Assembly (NCBI RefSeq): GCF_009914755.1
Contig: NC_060944.1
Length of the DNA: 64,000 nucleotides
Strand: one strand, 5' to 3'
From: the human T2T-CHM13v2.0 reference genome, Homo sapiens
In this document: positions 41,729-52,913 of the stretch, piece after piece
How positions within the stretch are numbered: the stretch's first letter is position 1
Layout of the letters: each line of letters opens with the position of its first letter
Notes under the pieces: model-generated
What the model was told of the DNA's origin: nothing
Seen by the model: the letters and a program-made list of their open reading frames with translations, nothing else
The model's database searches: none
Translations under genes and position numbers: made by a program

Positions 41729-44700
41729 CTCTCAAAACCACATGATTATATAGAAACTTACTCCTGAATGACTTTTCAGTAAGCAAAACAACTAAGGCAA
41801 AAATAAAAAAAAAATTATTTGAAACAAATGAAACTAAAGACAGAATGTACTTTAGTACATTCTGAATGGGAACCTCTAGAATGGGGAAAAAGCAGTGTTA
41901 AGAGGAACGTTTATAGTGCTAAATGCCTACTTCAAAACGTTAGAAAGATCTTAAATAAACTAATGCTGCATCTAAAGAAACTAGAATTAAAGAGCGAATG
42001 AATCCCAAAGCTAACAAAGAAAATAAATAACTAAAATCAGAGCAGAACTAAATGAAATTGTGACCCAAAAACATATAAAGGGTCAATAAGGTGAAAACTT
42101 TGTTTTTTTAAAGGATAAATGGGAATAATAGACCAGACCACTCACTAGATTAACAAAGAAAAAAAGAGAGATGATCCAGATAAGTATAATCAGAAGAAAC
42201 AAAGGTGACATTACAACCAATCTTACAAAATATAAAATATCCTCAGAGACTACTATGAACATCTCTATGCACACATGCTATGAAATCTAGAAAAAACTGA
42301 TAAATTCCTAGAAACACACAACCTCCCAATATTGAACCAGGAAGAAATAGAAACCCTGAAAACACCATTAATGAGTTACCAAATTGAATTAGTAATAAAA
42401 AACCTACCAACCATAAAAAGCCCTAAACCAGCTAGGTTCACATCCAAGTTCTATCAAATGTAAAAAGAAGAGCTGGTACCAATTCTACTAAAAATATTCC
42501 AAAAACTTGAGGAGGAAGGATTCCTCCCTAACTAATTCCACAAAACCAATATCATCTTGATACCATAATCTGGCAAAGACACAACTAAAAAGAAAGCTAC
42601 AGGCCAATATCCCTGAAGAACATAGACACAAAAATCTTCAACAAAATATTAGCAAATCAAATTCAGCCACACATCAAAAAGATAATCCACTGTGATCAAG
42701 TAAGCTTTATTCCGGAATGCAAGGATGGTTCAACATATGCAAATCAATAAATGTGATTCACCTCATAAATAGAATTAAAAACAAAAATTGTATGATCATC
42801 TCAGTAGATGCAGAAAAATGATTCAATAAAATCCAACATCTCTTCATGTTAAAAACCCTCAACAAAGTATGAATCAAAGGGAACTCTTAAAATATTAAGA
42901 GTCATCTATGGCAAACCCACAGGCAATATCATACTGAATAGGCAAAATGTGAAGCATTCCTCTTAAGAACTGGAATAAGACAAGGATATCCACTCTCATC
43001 ACTCCTATTCAGCATAGTACTGGAAGTCCTAGCCAGAGCAATCAGGCAAGAGAAAGAAATAAAAGGCATCCAAATAAGAAAAAGAGGAAATCAAATCATC
43101 TCACTTTGCTGAAGGTATGATTCTATATCTAGAAAACCCTAAAGATTCTGCCAAAAGACCCTTAGACTTGATAAACAACTTCAGTAAAGTTTCAGGATAC
43201 AAGATCAACATACAAAACCATACACCAATAACATTCAAGCTGATAACCAAATCGATAATACAATAAAATTTACAATAGCTACAAAAAATAAAATACATAG
43301 AAATACATTTAACCGAGGAGATGAAAGACCTCTATAAGAGAACTACAAAACACTGCTGAAAGAAATCATAGATCACACAAACAAGTGGAAAAATATTTCC
43401 TGCTCATAAATTGGAAGAATAAAAAATTATTAAAATGTCTATACTGTTCAAAAGTGATCTATATTCTCAATGCAATTCTATCAAATTACCAACATCTTTC
43501 TTCACAGAATTAGAAAAAAACTATTCTAAAATTTGTATGAAACTGAAAGGAGCCCAAATTGCCAAAACAAACCTAAGCAAAACGAACAAAGCCAGGGACA
43601 CCACATTACCTGACTTCAAGCTGTACTATAAGGCTACAGTAACCAAAACAGCATAGTACTTGTACAAAAATAAACAAAAAGACGAATGAAACAGAAAAGA
43701 GAACCCAGAAATAAAGCCACATATTTACAACCAACTGACTTTTGACAAAGTCAACAAAAGTAAACAATGGGAAAGGATACCCTATTCAAAAAATGGTGCT
43801 GCTGAACCTGGCTAACCATATGCAGAAGAATGAAACTCTATCCCTACCTCTTGTCATATACAAATATTAACTCAAGATAGATTAAAGACTTAAATCTAAG
43901 ACCTGAAACAATCAAACTTCTAGGAGAAAAACTAGAAAACATTCTTCTGGACATTGGCCTAGGCAAATAATTTAAGTCTTTAAAAGCAAATGCAACAAAA
44001 GCAAAAATTGGCAATTGAGACCTAATTAAACTAAAAAGCTTCTGCACATCAAAATAAACTATCAACATAGTAGACAGACAACCTACAGAATGGGAGAAAA
44101 CATTTCCAGACTATGAATCTGACAAAGGACTAATATCCAGAATCTGCAAGAAACTTAAACAAATCAACAAGAAAAAAAATCCATTAAAAAGTGGGCAAAG
44201 GACATGAACAGACACTTCTTAAAAAGAAGACATATAAGCAGCCAACAAACACAAAAAAATGCTTATCATCATGAATCATCAGAAAAAATGCAAATCAAAA
44301 TCACAATGAGATATCATCTCACAACAGTCAGAATGGTTATTACTAAAAAGTCAAAAAATAACAGATATTAACAAGGTAGCAAAGAAAAGTAATGCTTATA
44401 CACTATTGGTAGGTATGTAAATTAGTTGAGCCACTGTAGAAAGCAGTTGGATATTTCTCAAAGAACTAAAAATAGATTTATCATTCAACTCAGCAATCCT
44501 ATTACTGGATACATACCCAAAGGAAAATAAATCATTCTACCTAAAAAACACCTGCAGTCATATATTTATCACAGCACTATTCACAATAGCAAAGACGTGG
44601 GAACCAACCTAGTGTCTTGTCAGTGGTGGACTGGATAAATAAAAGGTGGTGCATATACATGATGGAATACTATGCAGCCATAAGAAGAATGAAATCAATC

Positions 44701-45014
44701 CTATACTTTACAGCAACATGGATGCAGCTTGTGGCCATTATCCTAAGTAAATTTATGAAAAAACAGAAAACCAAATACTGCATGTTCTCACTTATAAGTG
44801 AAAGCTAAACATTAGTACATGCAGACATAAAGATAGAAACAATAGACACTGGGGACTCCAAAAATAGGGGAGGAAGGGAATGGGGCAAGGGTTGAAGAAC
44901 TATTTATTGAGTGCTATATTACCTATTTGGGCAATGGGATCAATAGAAGCCCAAATTTCAGCACCACGCAATATACCCAGATAACAAATCTGCTCATGTA
45001 CCGCTGAATCTAAA
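41729..45014 (+). mobile_element. 5'-truncated L1PB4-like element with degraded ORF2
   Basis: ORF2 homology throughout ('ctggaagtcctagccagagcaatcaggcaagagaaag'); 3' end 'agaagcccaaatttcagcaccacgcaatatacccagataacaaatctgctcatgtaccgctgaatctaaa'. Confidence 0.88.
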
Positions 45015-45022
45015 TTTTTTTT

Positions 45023-45614
45023 TTAGAAAAGTTGAACATATACTAACTATATAGCCCAGAAACTTCACTCCTCAGTAGCTTCCCAAGAGAAACAATGACT
45101 CATCCTCATTCAAAGACTAAAATGTAGAGACATTAATCAAAGACTAAAAGGTGAAGACACCAATGTTTGTAGCAATTTTATTCATTAGTTAAAAATGAGG
45201 GAAGTCCATCAACTGGGGATTGGATAAACATCTTGTGGCAAACCCTTCAATGGAATACTATACAGCAATTTAAAGGAAAAGACTACTGATGCATGCATAA
45301 CATAAATGAATCTCAAAGCTCTTATGCCAAGTGGAAACATTTAGGCACAAAAGTCACGTGTGATTAATGCCCAGAACTGGCAAAATTATTGAGACCTAAA
45401 ACAGATCAGTGGTGGCCTAGGGCTGGGAATGGGCAATAAGACTGACTGCTAAGGAGCAGGAAGAATGTTTTGGGGTGAGGGAAGGAACTGAAAACCAGAT
45501 TGCAGGGATGGTGGCTGTGTGACTAAAACTCATGGGACTATACACTTAAAATGAAAAAAAAAAATATGCTATGTAAATTATCACTCAAAATAGATGCTTT
45601 ACAAAGTTAAAAAA
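45023..45614 (+). mobile_element. L1ME-type 3' half
   Basis: 'ttagaaaagttgaacata...aatggaatactatacagcaatt...acagatcagtggtggcctagggctggg...tgtaaattatcactcaa' followed by A8. Confidence 0.8.
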
Positions 45615-45962
45615 AAGACCTTTGTTCTAAAGGAAAAAAGAGAATATGATTCTGGTAATAACAAAGATACAGGATGGTGGAAGGTTTTCTATTTTACTAT
45701 TTTTAATAGGATATATTCGAGTGTACTTATAGGTTAGGAAGAAGAAGAAGGAGAAAGAGAATCAAAACGCAGACAACAGAGCAAATAATGGAGAAAATGT
45801 GGGGTGGGAACAGGACCCACAAGGCAAATTTTAGAGGTGGAGCTTCAGCACAAGATGCTCCCTCCTCTGCACTGAAAGGGATAACATTGATGAAGTTTTT
45901 GTTGTCTTTTCAGTAAAAAAGAAGCAAGGCTACCTACTGCAAGTGACATCAGTGATGAGCAG
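45607..45962 (+). repeat. Inverted repeat, arm 1 (L2-derived sequence)
   Basis: Reverse complement of 49366-49723; I counted ~11 substitutions and two 1-bp homopolymer indels. Confidence 0.97.
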
Positions 45963-46700
45963 GTGGATAGGTGAGAATGACATTTGAAATATCCTTGTGG
46001 GTTACTGAGAAAGCAAGCAAGCTAGTTGTGTAAAATAACTTTCAAACCAAAATGAAGACTCATTGGAGATTGGAAACCACAATCTGTAGCAACAATGGTC
46101 TACAGAGTTAAATGATTTTCTCCAGGGGCATTTATCAGCTACATTTTTTGTAAGGGTATAATGAATGGCTAGATTGATGCTAATTTGCAAGGCCATGAGG
46201 ATGTTGAAGCAACCAAAAACAGAACATAAACACTGCACTCTAGAGAGGTGGGCTATCAAAGGAAGGAAAGAGTTCACTGAAGAAAAAGAGAAGGGTTGAG
46301 GAATTGAATTCTCAGGGTATCCAGAAAACCTATGTATAGGGAGCAAGGGAAAAAAAGAAAAAAAACATGCAGGGATAATTATGGTCAGAAATTGAAAATT
46401 GAAATTTAGGATTTCCCAACAAGTGCCCAGGTCTGGAGTATGATCCTGAGAGAGAGTGGCTCAAGGGGTTGAATGGAGATTGTTGGAGTATAATAAGTCA
46501 GGAAGCTTTCCACATGGATAACAAAGACAACCAGGATGATTGTTCAGCCTAAAAGGAGTGAAAAGAAAGACAGTAAGTCAGGTACCAATGCTTGAGCAAC
46601 AATGGAGTACAACAGCTACATGGAGGACCTCAAGGAAGAAATGCTTCCTAAAGGTAGAAGCAAAAGGATCTATAGGTAATAAAAGGCATCAAGACCTTTG
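45615..46700 (-). mobile_element. L2 fragment continuing from 41670-41728
   Basis: Antisense L2-like sequence appears to read through the 15-bp TSD ('taatctttccaagatctttgttcta|aaggaaaaaagagaa'). Confidence 0.55.
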
Positions 46701-49365
46701 TAAACATTTCTCAACCTCCCCTTGTCTCTTGACTCTGCTAGTTATGGTTACCTGGCCAGATCAGCAAAAGAATCAGGTGTCACTAAAAAGCAAGTTGAAC
46801 AAGATTAAGAATTGCTGCTAAACGAAATTATCATGAGAAATACACTGGAGACGGTGCAATAAAAGAATTCAAGTCAGCCACAAAAGTGTACCTGCCCAAA
46901 TGCCTAGGGCCAAGACAAAAATCAGGATGGGCACAACAGAAAGCAATCAAGATACCAGGGCCAAATCAAAGAGAGTAGCTCCTTTTAATTCCAATTTTTA
47001 TGTACATGTATACTTAGGGGAGCTCCCTATTGAATTGGCTGTGTACTACAAGCTTAATGGCGTGATAAATAGAAAGATGCAAAGAGGCAAGAATGGATGA
47101 GCAGGGGTCGTTCTGGGCAATGTAAAGGGACCAGTTCAAAGCCTGTTCCAGAATGACTTGGCCCACTAACCGTGGTAGAGAAGACCATTTGGAGTGGTCA
47201 AAGCACTGGCCATTGACTGCTCTGCTTTGCATTTGCCTGTGAGCACAGCACAGAAGTCTTTGCAATAGATGGCTCATCCTCATTCTCAGAATGTTTCCTG
47301 CCTTACTTTCTTCTCTAACAACAAATGTTCAATGCTTTCCAGCCCCTGTTGTGTGTTACATTAGGGCACCATGAAGACGCTTCTTGTTTATTATCTCTCT
47401 CCTCTGTCTTCCTGCTCCTTATTCCCCTTTCTTTAAAGGCAGACTCTTTCTTGGCAATTTTTTTATCTCCAAGCTTGGAGCCCCTCCCTATTTCCTCTGC
47501 CTCTTTACTCCTCATATGTACTTTTAACAAATCTATAGGGTGCCTTCAAACTAAGATACTTTAAAAAATAATTGCTACATTCCTCTAATCTTCCTGAGCA
47601 CAAATTCTAGGCATCAGCTGCCTGACTATACACAGAAAGTTATTTTAGGGTGCAAATTTGGGACCATTGTGAAATTCCAGTGGCTATGCACAGGTTTCCT
47701 CACAGCTTTCTGATATTTAAGTTTTTTAGGCAGGATTGTCTGAAGCTGTGTAGCTTAAGGGCCTTTGAGTAATAATTATCATCATGGCTTTACCTCTAAT
47801 GCCCACTGTAAGAGCAAGATCATCTGAATCTTTCTTTCTATAGAATAGAGAGCACAAAAATAAGCAAACTTGAAGAGCTGTGATCATAAAAGCTAACTAA
47901 ATACTGCCATGAAACAGCTAGGATTTGGATGCAGAAACAGAGTGCCAGAGAAACACTAAACAAAATGACATACCACAGTTAGGATCTCAGGAATTGAGAA
48001 GATGGACCTGTCTGGCAGCTGAAAACATTGATGTCCATCATTAATGCAGAGTCAGGACTTCCCAGAGACGAAATTCTTCTGCAGGAAAAAGGGTGCAACC
48101 ATCAGCCTCTGCCCTTCCTCCATGTGAGATCTCTTTCTCAGTCTCCAGGGAAGCAATGTCCTTTTGCTTCCTACTAAATACCTGGACCTCTCCATCCCTA
48201 TATTACCCACTCCAGAGCAATTTGCACAGTGCTCCACACTTTCCCCTAATTCCTTCTCTTCAAATTCTGTCTTACGTGCAAACTTCCAGGATTTAGCTGT
48301 CCGCTGGATGACGATAGATAGTGAGTGGATTAATAAAAGCTATACTCCTAGCAAAATGTTTTGTTAGATCTCAGTAGCAATGCCTCAACTGTACAAATGT
48401 GCAGACTTTCATAATTGCCCTTAAGTATTCACTAATCCTGGAAATTTCAAGCAAAGTAGCTATCTCTCTGTGTGGAGAAAAGATGTTAAGTTATTTGAGG
48501 TTTTCAGCATGCTGAAGTTTACATTATAAAAGGAATTGCTAATTCCACCTACACCCTTGAAGGAGGGCCATCCATTAACAAGAGAAAGCAATACCTTAGG
48601 GCAAAGTTTCTGCCTATCTGCAAGGGAATATACCAATTACTAAGACAACTTTATCCCCTACATCCAACTAAGCCGTTTTTGATCTTGATCCAACTCCTTA
48701 ATATTTTAGGTAATGCAGATAAAGTCAATTTTCGACTATCCATGGGTGGATTATCTGCAAATCTGGATTTTATCTTCTTGTGTTGATCTTGTCATCTGTT
48801 TTGTTTATCTAAGCCCTTTAAAAGCACTATTGTTGCTTCTGTTTACTCTTATTTCCTGCATGCAGTAATGATAATTCCCTATATTTGTTTGGCATTTTAT
48901 GGTTTGTGAAATATTTTCACATGCATTCTCTCATTTTGATGTAGCCTCCGTTAATCCAAAGTAGGAAGGGGAGTCTTTGAAACCATAGCATTTTGTCATC
49001 AAATTATTTTCTTGGGAAGGTATATGCTAACATGTTGGAAGTTGATTAAGAAACAAAACAAAACATATCTGAGATCATGTTGGTCGTTTGCACAGGCCTA
49101 CGTGGTGCCAGTGATTATACCAACATCAAATGGGGTAAAAGGAGGAGATAACCAGATAGAAGATCACCAACTGACAGTTGCTCATAGCACTGTTCTACTG
49201 TAAGGCTCAAATCCTAGAATATCAGCCACATTCAAAGGCAAGGCCAAACTCACATTTAAGAGTGAGTTTATACCTCTATATTGATGATCAATTGATTTTT
49301 AACACAAACAACTAAGCAAGTCAACAGGAACAGCGATTTTTTTTTCTACTATGGTGCTGAGACAT

Positions 49366-49723
49366 CTGCTCTTCACTGATGTCACTTGCAGTAGGTAGCC
49401 TTGCTTCTTTTTTACTGAAAAGACAACCAAAACTTCATCAATGTTATCCCTTTCAGTGCAGAGGAGAGAGTATCTTGTGCTGAAGCTCCACCTCTATAAT
49501 TTGCCTTGTGGGTCCTGTTCCCACCCCACGTTTTCTCCATTATTTGCTCTGTTGTCTGCGTTTTGATCTTCTTTCTCCTTCTTCTTCTTCCTAACCTATA
49601 AGTACACTCAAATATATCCTATAAAAAATAGTAAAATAGAAAACCTTCCACCATCCTGTATCTTTGTTATTACCAGAATCATATTCTCTTTTTTTCCTTT
49701 AGAACAAAGATCTTTTTTTTTAA
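49366..49723 (-). repeat. Inverted repeat, arm 2
   Basis: Reverse complement of 45607-45962. Confidence 0.97.
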
Positions 49724-50388
49724 GCCAAACATGAACTTAGACCCTTACCTCCTATCACAAACAAAAATTACCTCAGAATAGATCAGAGACCTAAATGCAT
49801 TAGGTAAAGCTATAAAACTTTTAGAAGAAAACATAGAATAAAATATTTAAGACCTTGAGTTAGATAAAAATTTCTTAGATATGATATTATGTCTATGATA
49901 TTATGTCAAAAGCATAATACATACAAAACTTGATAAATCGGCTTTCACTGAAATTCAAAACTTTTCTGTTTTAAAAGACACTGTTAAGAAAATAAAAACA
50001 CAAGCCATAGACTGAGAAAAAAATTTACATATCATATATCTGATAAAAATTTATCCTCAAAATATAAAATGAACTCTTATAGCCCAGTATACAAGGTAAA
50101 CAACCAATTATGAAATGGGCAGAAGACTTTAATAAACATTTTACCAAAGAAGATATACAAATGTCTAATAGCACCTGAAAAGATGCTCAACATTATTAAT
50201 TATTAGGGAGATGCACATTAAGACCATTATGAGTACCATTTCACCTCCACAAGAATGGCTATGATTTTTTAAAAAGATAAATAATAACAAATGTTAATAG
50301 GATGTAGAGAAACAGGAGCTTTATATATTAGTGATGTTATGTAACATAAAATGGAACAGCCACTTTGAAAAACTATTAACAGCTCTTA
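49722..50388 (+). mobile_element. L1ME-type ORF2 C-terminal fragment (5' half of the piece at 45023)
   Basis: 'atgaacttagacccttacctc...aaaacttttagaagaaaacatag...aaaatggaacagccactttgaaaaactattaacagctctta'. Confidence 0.8.
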
Positions 50389-52913
50389 CTGACACATGAT
50401 CGAAGGCTGGAGGTAGAGAGGAGAGACTGGAAATAAAAGGTATCCTGTCCTCCCTGTGACAGATGCTATAAGAGAAGGATGATAGGACTCATCTGTCTAT
50501 GCTCACTTGGAATTCCACAAACTCCCTTTATACAACCACCTAGAGGAATGGGTACCCTTTAGTCTTACATTTGCATAGCTTAAGGGAACAAATTTGGTGG
50601 CTGTTCTTGGAAAAGTTGAGTTTTTTTCAACTACATTGACTTGGCGACTTAACTCTAGAAAGAGTAGCCTCTAACAACCTTAAATAACTAAAAATACAAT
50701 GCAAAATAAACTCTCTGCTTGACTGAACATTCTGATTCTATGATAATATCTCTACCTCCTTAGCTTCACTCCAAGACTTTGTTTCCTAAAGTTCATAGGC
50801 AAGGCTTATTCTTGCAGCTTTACAGAAACTAAGCCCAAATGAAGAGCTTCTGAACCATTCCCTACTCTAAACAGCCATTCCTGCCTGTTTGTTTGGAGGA
50901 GCTTACAGCCTCATTGGCCAGAGCATCCGCGCAGGGAAGGGAGCTATCAGCATGAAGGATGGATGCTGTGTCCTGGCTACAGGACGGCTTCAGCATAATT
51001 ATCCTGCCTGGGACTTTGCCCATTATATTATAATGAATTGCTTTGGAGGAAAAGATCAAATGGTGGAGAAATCCTCAAGAGAAAGAATACATCTGTTAAA
51101 AACTCCCACCAAAAATGTTATAAAGTGTTTTTGTTTACTAAATCTTTCAAGTCTGAAACTGGTTCAAGTATAACTTAGCAGCTTGTTGTGAGAAAAGAGA
51201 GAAAGGAAGACCACATAATCCACCAAAACTAATTAAAAATAATACACACACATAGAATGGAATTATAGATGATTTTGTGCAGCATAAATGTATAAAACAT
51301 GTTTATAAATATTGATACACATGTTAAGATTGTCTCTGTGTATGCATTTAAGACAAAAAGATTCCAAAAATGCATAAAAGTGTTCTATACATGAGCACAT
51401 GTGATCCCAATTTAGGGTTATTTCTAAAAGGTTTTAATTCTTGGCTTTGTACTTGATTGCAAGAGATTCAAATGAACAAATTTGGTGGAAGTCCTGGGAA
51501 TTCTCTCTGCTCTTCAGCAACTACTCTCTAATTTTCAGCAATTACATTTTTATCACCCATTGTGATCCTATAACATTAAATGTGCATTAGAAAAGGAGAG
51601 GAAAAAGCCTGTAATTTCACAAGCTTTGGGGATCACAGGTTGGGCACCTGCTTTATTACACATACAAGGAATTGATGCTAAATTTTATTCCTCGAAATGA
51701 TTCTGATTACAGGTAGAATGTAATAGAATTTTCTATCCTGTGACTACTCACAGGATAAAAAATACACATATAATACTTACCATGAAACACCAAATGTGTA
51801 TTTGCTGGAAGGGACATGCAGAATACACATACAGTACTCAGCGTGAAACACCAAATGCACATTTGCTGGAGTTGAGAAATCAGGCTGGAATTTGTAGGAC
51901 GTAGAACAATTGCTCTACAAACCCATGACCAAGATGACTGATCCTAAACACGTTCTCAAGAAGCCACAAGAGCCTTCCTTTCCTCTCCTGTGTCTTATCC
52001 CTTTCCTCCTCTTGCCCCCTTCCCCACTATGCAAAAAGACAAATAGTTATTTAGATCTCCCACAAAAGCCCAGGAAACTGGACAAAGGGTGACAGGCTTG
52101 GGGCAGGAAGGGGGAAGCCCCTGCCACAGAGTTGCAAATAGGTCTCTTTTTCTTGGGTTTGCATAGAAAGTCCTCTGAATGAGCTTGCTGTGGCCTGCCC
52201 CTTACCTTCTCATAGATTGTTAATATAGGCAGTAGGAAAAGTACACACAGAACGGTTTAGAGGGAGAAGGGAGGACTCTGGGAAATTTACTAAAAAATTA
52301 ATGGATCTCCGTCTGGTGCAGTAAAGGCAATTCTTGATTGTTTGCACCAATGCAGTGAGCAGATTATCAAGGCACAGACAAGGTTTCCTTAGTCCGAAAC
52401 ATAGAGAACTCCGGAGGCCCTTATCAAAACCATTTCCCTCCTGGTTTAGCGACTGATTATGGCTTTAACTGCATCATCTCCATCAGCAATGGCAGGCCAA
52501 GCTGCTGCTAGGAGCAAAAGCTAAGGCTGGTTTTCCTGCAAAGCAGAAATACTTGTCATTTCACAGGGGCCTGGTATCTGAGTCTCATTCAGCCATCTTG
52601 TTTCCTGTGAGGCCCAGGCTGTATGGACCTGGGCTTATTACTGGGCTTATTTGTGTTTTGGTTTGAGAATAGGATTGAGCGTGTGGTAATCAGATGATGC
52701 TCTCTGCAAACCGCCTGGGGCAGAGCAGCTAGAGTTCTGAGGGAAGCCTCCAGCTTCATCCTTCGGGAACTCCCCTTAAGTCCCGTAGCTCCCTCCCTGC
52801 TCCTACCTTTGGCCTGAGAATTCTCATGCTGCTCCTTAGAATTCTAAAGACTCATGATGTCTGGCACTCTGCTAGGCTGGACCTTCACTTTTGAGACGGA
52901 TTCAAAGGTAAAT

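What the first reader, a model, noticed from the sequence alone, without database searches (positions are those of the whole stretch)
45607..49723. Young ~357-bp inverted duplication of ancient L2-derived DNA bracketing 3.4 kb
Seen: 45607-45962 is the reverse complement of 49366-49723, with ~11 substitutions and 2 homopolymer indels (~96-97% identity) and a 3403-bp spacer. The duplicated DNA looks like an old L2 fragment, and independent L2 copies are never this similar, so this is a local duplication. Inference: arm 1 appears colinear with the L2 on both sides, so arm 2 is the derived copy. The identity means either a recent (hominoid-era) event or ongoing gene conversion. Such repeats can drive recurrent NAHR inversion of the spacer, or form long dsRNA if transcribed.
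Basis: partly seen in the sequence, partly recalled or inferred. Interest (0 to 1): 0.8.

Follow-up and report, generated by a model that had tools for sequence, protein, structure and literature searches.

The report
Old local inverted copy inside LINE-1
A 356-base stretch of human chromosome 20 was copied long ago, in reverse orientation, into an old LINE-1 remnant 3.4 kb away; it is most likely an ordinary scar of DNA break repair and has no known function.

Summary
Arm 1 (45607-45962) and arm 2 (49366-49723, reverse complement) match at 343 of 354 aligned bases (96.9%), with 11 substitutions, two A-run length differences and a 3403-bp spacer. The whole T2T assembly holds only these two copies, so this is a local duplication and not two insertions of a repeat family.

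Arm 2 is the derived copy. It interrupts an old, high-copy LINE-1-type element whose two halves lie next to each other in other copies. It has no target-site duplication and no poly-A tail, and about 14 nt of the element are missing at or beside the junction. Arm 1 begins in the native A-tail of a different LINE-1-type 3' end that continues to its left.

Best mechanism (inferred): a DNA 3' end at a break or stalled fork copied 356 nt from 3.4 kb away on the same chromosome, by fold-back or template switch, and was then end-joined.

Divergence of 3.1% suggests an age of roughly 8-30 million years; this was not tested in other species. No chr20 entry near 11.5 Mb occurs among the HsInv rows of a 612-region inversion catalogue. 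Interest is low.

The parts
43505..45606 (+). LINE-1-type element, 3' part, forming the left flank of arm 1. The start is only the limit of my query. It runs into the A-tail at 45609-45616.
   Evidence: 225 first-look candidates in the genome; 577-nt alignment to L017; matches to 20+ reference loci covering 43505-45605; 4 reference copies run into an A-run at the equivalent end.
45607..45962 (+). Arm 1, the source copy (356 nt): TT plus the A8 tail of the left-flank element, followed by 346 nt of DNA that is unique apart from arm 2.
   Evidence: Original context is shown by the element tail continuing leftwards outside the arm.
45963..49365 (.). The right end, 49269-49365, is the inner part of the target LINE-1-type element.
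   Evidence: unique in the genome for 45930-46700; no other similarity; no Rfam family; no Pfam domain in 15 frames.
48294..48991 (.). RefSeq 'enhancer' functional element inside the spacer, taken from the hub's annotation and not tested here.
   Evidence: Hub annotation supplied with the finding; no call of mine bears on it.
49269..49365 (+). Inner part of the target LINE-1-type element, directly abutting arm 2.
   Evidence: matches L008 (E 2.4e-11) and L010 (E 3.5e-6) just downstream of where the outer flank ends. Searches agree.
49366..49723 (-). Arm 2, the derived inverted copy (358 nt), inserted into the LINE-1-type element with no target-site duplication and no poly-A at its far end.
49724..50388 (+). 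Outer part of the target LINE-1-type element.
   Evidence: 2405 first-look candidates, the 40 scored being about 68-81% identical; 11 reference loci align from 49727-49754 onwards.

Best explanation
This is a fixed, neutral scar of one old mutational event. Shown: a 356-nt stretch (arm 1), which starts in the A-tail of one LINE-1-type element, exists as a second, inverted copy (arm 2) 3.4 kb away. Arm 2 sits inside a different, older LINE-1-type element, without target-site duplication or poly-A tail, and about 14 nt of that element are missing at or within 4 nt of the junction. Inferred: a DNA break or stalled fork in the target element left a free 3' end. That end primed on the same chromosome 3.4 kb away, either by folding back on its own resected strand or by switching to the sister or lagging template. 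It copied 356 nt until it fell off just past the A8/T8 run, and was then joined to the other end by end joining with 0-3 nt of microhomology. The two copies have since drifted apart by 3.1%. That implies an age of roughly 8-30 million years, with a point estimate of about 13-16 at 1.0-1.2e-9 per site per year (rates recalled). The repeat has no demonstrated function. Inversion of the spacer by recombination between the arms, or hairpin RNA if the region is transcribed, are possible consequences, not observed ones.
For: The duplicate is real and there are only two copies genome-wide. Arm 2 splits one element: the outer flank has 2405 candidates at about 70% identity, the inner flank aligns to the same copies L008 and L010 about 16 nt further on, and the junction alignment to 11 copies shows the element resuming after about 14 missing nt with no flanking direct repeat. 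Both halves align to the references in the same direction, which is an insertion topology. Arm 1 is in native context: the element at 45020-45596 is 79% identical to L017 in the genome search, aligns over 577 nt, and its tail forms the first bases of the arm (L010, L008, L021 and L013 of 23 loci run into an A-run at the aligned end). The far end of arm 2 reads ...GAGCAG|ATGTCTC with no A-tract. Published models fit. Class 2 templated insertions lack TSD and poly-A and show end-joining features (PMC5110952, passages). Fold-back priming with polymerase delta synthesis followed by NHEJ capture gives inverted local insertions, with 0-5 bp (median 2 bp) microhomology at the captured end (PMC11724301, passages). 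A donor only 3.4 kb away in inverted orientation is what a local template switch predicts.
Against: No step of the mechanism is observed directly. Microhomology at both junctions is only 0-3 nt and cannot be fixed after 3% decay. The yeast fold-back events were 10 to just over 150 bp with a 41-nt loop; here the insert is 356 nt and the loop 3.4 kb, well outside that range. The heptamer GTGGATA that follows arm 1 is also typical of the missing stretch of the target element (exact in 1 of 11 reference copies), yet it is absent from the product, which a simple switch-back at that homology would not predict. The 14-nt loss may be an unrelated older deletion. An RNA intermediate cannot be excluded. 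The age rests on recalled substitution rates and assumes no gene conversion.
Confidence: 0.6

Rival explanations
1. RNA-templated patch: a read-through transcript of the arm 1 region was reverse-transcribed and used to fill a break in the target element. This would be an endonuclease-independent LINE-1 event or a class 2 templated sequence insertion, resembling an orphan 3' transduction because the copy begins at the very end of a LINE-1-type element.
For: The copy starts exactly at the terminal TT plus A-tail of the left-flank element, the geometry of a 3' transduction. It has no TSD or poly-A, as described for class 2 insertions (PMC5110952). An AGTAAA hexamer lies about 45 nt before the arm's far end (read).
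Against: Class 2 donors were described as distant genomic regions, whereas this donor is 3.4 kb away. No transcript is annotated in the window (hub). The left-flank element is old (about 60-79% identical to other copies), so its own promoter activity is unlikely. There is no poly-A at the far end.
Confidence: 0.15
2. Inversion by staggered breaks: the 3.4-kb segment was inverted, with a 356-nt staggered cut at one breakpoint filled in on both ends to make the inverted duplicate, and was later flipped back by recombination between the arms.
For: Staggered-break inversions are known to leave inverted duplications at their ends (recalled from Drosophila work, not read here). Short inverted repeats can re-invert: 11 of 42 short-IR regions were polymorphic in my tally of Table S1 of PMC13629690.
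Against: In this haplotype the target element is continuous across arm 2 in a single orientation. That is the insertion topology and not the topology a single staggered inversion leaves. The model therefore needs two events where one suffices.
Confidence: 0.05
3. The event is much older than 3% divergence suggests, and the arms have been kept similar by gene conversion.
For: Gene conversion between close inverted repeats is a known process (recalled). The target and donor contexts put no upper limit on age.
Against: The 12 differences are spread evenly. The longest identical run is 70 bp, and 72% of random placements give a run at least that long. No mosaic of identical and divergent blocks is seen.
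Confidence: 0.12
4. The arms are two independent insertions of a young dispersed repeat, or an assembly artefact.
For: None found.
Against: There are only two matches in 3.1 Gb (with the tool's caveat that counts are lower bounds). Arm 1 contains the junction between a LINE-1 tail and its flanking DNA, which no repeat family would carry. The 11 substitutions have a 7:4 transition:transversion ratio, which is not what a collapsed or duplicated assembly produces.
Confidence: 0.02

Closest known systems
Class 2 templated sequence insertions (break-repair patches; PMC5110952, passages read)
   Same: A copied stretch of a few hundred nt is inserted with the donor retained, with no target-site duplication, no poly-A tail and no LINE-1 endonuclease-type target, and with a small loss at the recipient site.
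   Different: The described donors lie in distant regions and are thought to be RNA-derived. Here the donor is 3.4 kb away on the same chromosome in inverted orientation, which points to a DNA template. This copy is also old and presumably fixed rather than polymorphic.
Fold-back templated inverted insertions at double-strand breaks (yeast; PMC11724301, passages read)
   Same: An inverted copy of nearby sequence from the same molecule is added at a break, with one end extended by synthesis and the other captured by end joining with little microhomology.
   Different: The scale differs: 10 to just over 150 bp with a 41-nt loop in yeast, against 356 nt with a 3.4-kb loop here. No clear inverted microhomology survives at the priming site.
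Inverted repeats that mediate polymorphic inversions (HsInv catalogue, PMC13629690, Table S1 parts 1-4 read)
   Same: The catalogue holds non-transposon 'IR'-type pairs of similar length, for example HsInv1903 (394 bp) and HsInv1923 (280 bp), both polymorphic, and HsInv0482 (346 bp) and HsInv0064 (520 bp with a 4063-bp segment), neither polymorphic.
   Different: This locus is not among the HsInv rows; the chr20 rows lie at 10.8, 25.8, 36.96 and 47.8 Mb. Its spacer (3.4 kb) is longer than in 10 of the 11 polymorphic short-IR cases (1550 bp or less). Both orientations have not been observed.
LINE-1-mediated retrocopy or orphan 3' transduction (class 1 insertion)
   Same: The copy begins at the extreme 3' end and A-tail of a LINE-1-type element and continues into its downstream flank.
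   Different: It has no target-site duplication, no terminal poly-A and no TTTT/A-type target, so the defining features are not met.

Membership tests
Class 2 templated sequence insertion (break-repair patch) | No target-site duplication of 5 bp or more at the insert | tested here: met
   The flanks read ...CATGTTTGGC | insert | ATGTCTCAGC... with no shared end sequence.
Class 2 templated sequence insertion (break-repair patch) | No poly-A tract at the insert's end | tested here: met
   The far end reads ...GAGCAG followed directly by LINE-1 sequence. The A-run at the other end is copied from the donor.
Class 2 templated sequence insertion (break-repair patch) | End-joining features at junctions (microdeletion, microhomology, untemplated bases) | tested here: inconclusive
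   About 14 nt of the target element are missing at or within 4 nt of the junction relative to 7 of 11 alignable copies. It cannot be shown that they were lost in the same event. Microhomology is 0-3 nt.
Class 2 templated sequence insertion (break-repair patch) | Donor in a distant genomic region, RNA-derived | tested here: not met
   The donor is 3403 nt away on the same chromosome. An RNA origin is not testable here.
Fold-back / template-switch inverted insertion | Inverted copy of nearby sequence on the same molecule, with the donor retained | tested here: met
Fold-back / template-switch inverted insertion | Inverted microhomology at the priming junction | tested here: inconclusive
   At most 2-3 nt at the inner junction. 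The GTGGATA coincidence is not retained in the product.
LINE-1-mediated retrocopy / 3' transduction (class 1) | Target-site duplication, terminal poly-A, TTTT/A target | tested here: not met
   None of the three is present at arm 2.
Inverted-repeat-mediated (NAHR) polymorphic inversion | Pair of inverted repeats above 90% identity flanking the segment | tested here: met
   96.9% identity over 354 nt.
Inverted-repeat-mediated (NAHR) polymorphic inversion | Both orientations observed among haplotypes or species | not testable with these tools
   Only one assembly is held. The locus is not listed among the HsInv rows of PMC13629690 Table S1. The rows named 'mos-' (inverted segmental duplications of 1 kb or more) were not read beyond the first eight.
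Inversion by staggered breaks with inverted duplication | Sequence once adjacent to the outer flank now lies at the far end of the inverted segment | tested here: not met
   The LINE-1 halves are adjacent across arm 2, in one orientation.
   No repeat library was available. The arm body has no paralogue in the genome or the window, no Pfam domain and no Rfam family. The first 10 nt of the arm are a LINE-1 tail, not L2.
Segmental duplication (1 kb or more, 90% or more) | Length of at least 1 kb | tested here: not met
   356-358 nt.

The most novel reading that the evidence does not exclude
The two arms still recombine, so the 3.4-kb spacer with its annotated enhancer exists in both orientations among human haplotypes or differs between apes. 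That would be a small recurrent inversion missed by current catalogues. It would also be a dated natural example of a kilobase-range fold-back repair event creating a new inversion substrate.
Probability: 0.06. Interest if true: 0.4.

Novelty: new member of a known kind. Interest (0 to 1): 0.15.

Why it matters
It matters little on its own. The locus is a clean, datable example of how a non-transposon inverted repeat arises in a primate genome: a copy of nearby DNA patched into a break. Its polarity and junctions are readable because both ends fall in recognisable LINE-1 remnants. Such repeats are the raw material for later inversions. Still, in the catalogue rows I tallied, repeats this short were polymorphic almost only when the inverted segment was under about 1.6 kb. 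No gene lies in the window, and nothing suggests a function.

Tried and rejected
1. Dispersed repeat family: rejected, with only 2 copies genome-wide.
2. L2 identity of the arm: unresolved. DNA searches, 15 translated frames against Pfam (the only hits were E 0.06-0.16, below cut-off), Rfam (0 matches) and a protein search of the genome with the 152-codon frame (one weak match at E 3.6e-4, 22% identity, with 5 stops) all gave nothing usable.
3. Retrocopy or 3' transduction: rejected, because TSD and poly-A are absent.
4. Staggered-break inversion as a single event: rejected by topology.
5. Recent gene-conversion tract: no sign.
7. Catalogue look-ups. Phrase searches across table cells failed their positive control and are void. 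Number-prefix searches were inconclusive because only two passages per term are shown, so I read Table S1 parts 1-4 instead. The supplement search for 'chr20' found nothing because the table writes '20'.
8. The inversion benchmark PMC13721702 (abstract and outline; supplements listed and searched) holds no coordinate lists.
9. PMC3961182 (passages) has 0 mentions of chr20 or 20p12 in its main text.
10. A search for '20p12.2' + 'inversion' + 'inverted repeat' returned 1 paper, on a cell line, judged from its title and abstract start only.
11. One search failed on a too-short search term and was resent.
Full report
OBSERVATION. The repeat finder on 44000-51500 returns one long inverted pair, 357 nt at 94% without gaps. 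A gapped local alignment gives 45609-45962 against the reverse complement of 49366-49720, with 343 matches, 11 mismatches and one gap column, or 96.9%. Two further shared T's extend the arms to 45607-45962 (356 nt) and 49366-49723 (358 nt), leaving a 3403-nt spacer. The two length differences are both in A-runs: A8 vs A9 at the start, and A6 vs A7 at 45634. The substitutions are 7 transitions and 4 transversions, 2 of them in CpG context. The adjacent pair at 45759/45760 (GA vs AG) may be a single event.

NOT A REPEAT FAMILY. A search of the window's own 3.1-Gb assembly with arm 1 finds only the two arms at E <= 0.001, and the first look gave only 2 candidates. The tool warns that its counts are lower bounds. 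A sensitive local BLAST of the arm body and spacer, against the window plus all fetched loci from other places in the genome, also finds only the partner arm.

ARM 2 IS AN INSERTION INTO AN OLD LINE-1-TYPE ELEMENT.
- The outer flank of arm 2 (49724-50100) is a high-copy repeat: 2405 first-look candidates, of which the 40 scored were about 68-81% identical.
- The inner flank (49000-49365) found nothing on its own in the genome search.
- Aligned locally to the 11 fetched copies, however, its first ~100-120 nt match L008 (E 2.4e-11) and L010 (E 3.5e-6). They match about 16 nt beyond the point where the outer flank stops matching.
- In a MAFFT alignment of the 11 copies with the two window flanks added as separate fragments, read on the minus strand, the window runs ...CATGTTTGGC | arm 2 | ATGTCTCAGCACCAT...
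- Seven alignable copies carry about 14 more nucleotides between these two points. The other four are interrupted or poorly aligned there.
- There is no direct repeat flanking arm 2, and no A-tract at its far end.
- Both halves align to the reference copies in the same direction, which is the topology of a simple insertion.
- The missing ~14 nt can be placed at the junction or 4 nt inside it, so I cannot show that they were lost in the same event.

ARM 1 IS IN ITS ORIGINAL CONTEXT.
- The left flank of arm 1 is another LINE-1-type 3' end, with 225 first-look candidates.
- One copy on the same chromosome, L017, is 79% identical in the genome search and aligns over 577 nt, window 45020-45596. Local BLAST shows this element covering 43505-45605.
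- Aligning the last 129 nt to the 23 fetched loci from other places in the genome, four copies (L010, L008, L021, L013) reach within 3 nt of the window end and then run into an A-run. The A8 at 45609-45616 is therefore that element's own tail.
- Arm 1 thus spans a native junction (element tail plus downstream DNA), with the element continuing leftwards outside the arm. Arm 2 carries only the last TT and the A-run, set against unrelated sequence. Arm 2 is the copy.
- The right side (45930-46700) is unique in the genome.
- Whether the 346-nt arm body is an ancient L2 fragment could not be tested, because no repeat-consensus library was available. Rfam gave 0 matches at E <= 1. Fifteen translated frames gave no Pfam hit better than E 0.06.

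MECHANISM.
- A retro-mediated copy is disfavoured. Target-site duplication, terminal poly-A and an endonuclease-type target are all absent, although the copy does begin at the very end of a LINE-1-type element as an orphan 3' transduction would.
- A single staggered-break inversion is excluded by the insertion topology.
- The features that remain are a retained donor, no duplication, no tail and a small loss. These match what Onozawa and Aplan call class 2 templated insertions, attributed to double-strand-break repair (PMC5110952, passages). Their donors are distant, however, and thought to be RNA-derived.
- A donor 3.4 kb away in inverted orientation is better explained by a local DNA template. 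One route is the resected 3' end of the break folding back on its own strand. Another is a nascent strand switching template at a stalled fork. Either would copy leftwards from 45962 to 45607 and then be joined to the other end.
- Exactly this hybrid of polymerase delta synthesis and end joining is documented in yeast, with 0-5 bp (median 2) microhomology at the captured end. There the inserts were 10 to just over 150 bp and the loop 41 nt (PMC11724301, passages). The present case would be several-fold longer, with a loop nearly a hundred times larger.
- Synthesis ended just past a homopolymer run, a plausible place for a polymerase to dissociate (inference).
- One unexplained detail remains. 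The heptamer GTGGATA that follows arm 1 is also typical of the missing stretch of the target element (exact in 1 of 11 copies, one mismatch in 4). The product does not retain it, so it is either coincidence or the trace of a further small deletion.

AGE AND CONVERSION.
- Eleven substitutions in 354 sites give a Jukes-Cantor distance of 0.032, with a Poisson 95% interval of 1.6-5.6%.
- With recalled rates of 1.0-1.2e-9 per site per year this is 13-16 million years (interval about 6.5-28). At 0.5e-9 it is about 32 million years.
- From memory, 3% is about the human-orangutan distance, so 'hominoid-era' is reasonable but untested. No other primate genome was available.
- The differences are evenly spread. 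The longest identical run is 70 bp, and 72% of random placements do as well. Nothing points to recent gene conversion.

INVERSION AND dsRNA.
- I read all rows named HsInv (parts 1-4) of Table S1 of a 2026 catalogue of 612 candidate inverted-repeat-mediated inversions. It merges calls from five long-read or optical-mapping studies with earlier paired-end predictions (PMC13629690: section 13; table).
- Its chr20 rows are at 10.81, 25.75, 36.96 and 47.83 Mb (hg38); none is near 11.5 Mb. The remaining rows are inverted segmental duplications of 1 kb or more, and I did not read them beyond the first eight.
- By my own tally of the rows shown, 42 regions have both repeats at or below 605 bp, and 11 of them are polymorphic. 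Ten of those 11 have inverted segments of 1550 bp or less. None of the 5 regions with segments of 2-6 kb is polymorphic.
- A 356-bp repeat at 97% identity, with at most 70 bp of perfect match and a 3.4-kb segment, is therefore a weak inversion substrate, though not an impossible one.
- If both arms were transcribed on one RNA they would pair strongly (cofold energy -614 kcal/mol). The hub lists no gene in the window, and I have no transcription data.

VERDICT. This is a genuine, old, local inverted duplication whose polarity and junctions can be read unusually clearly. It is most likely a scar of break repair or template switching. It is ordinary in kind, with no evidence of function or of present-day inversion. 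Supplements of bioRxiv preprints, including the Porubsky et al. inversion preprint (seen only in a search listing), were not consulted and could hold a call at this locus.

Noticed in passing
window 45963-45969, and the arm 2 inner junction at 49365/49366: The heptamer GTGGATA directly after arm 1 matches the family-typical sequence of the ~14 nt missing from the target LINE-1-type element (exact in 1 of 11 reference copies, one mismatch in 4). The product does not retain it. This is either coincidence or the trace of a microhomology step followed by a small deletion.
   Followed up: partly
window 46002-46460, minus strand: A 152-codon stop-to-stop open frame lies just inside the spacer; by my rough estimate about 0.1 frames of this length are expected by chance in this stretch. 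It has no Pfam hit. In the genome it has only one weak match, with 5 stops (E 3.6e-4, 22% identity). It has just one internal Met and an F/L/S-rich composition, and looks like a chance frame.
   Followed up: yes
L017 (G000 C20:58133932-58137313) versus window 45020-45596: One LINE-1-type copy 46 Mb away on the same chromosome is much closer to the left-flank element (79%) than any other scored copy (68-84% over far shorter stretches; 57-77%). It is cut off by an Alu-like sequence right at its 3' end. It is probably a sister copy from the same subfamily burst.
   Followed up: no
window 45552-45563: An A11-12 run sits inside the 3' end of the left-flank element, where the related copy L017 has mixed sequence. 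This is a second homopolymer close to the arm boundary.
   Followed up: no
window 49269 and 50388: The target LINE-1-type element is only about 760 nt long without arm 2. Relative to the reference copies, it lacks both its 5' part and its last ~600 nt, including the tail. How it was truncated was not examined.
   Followed up: no
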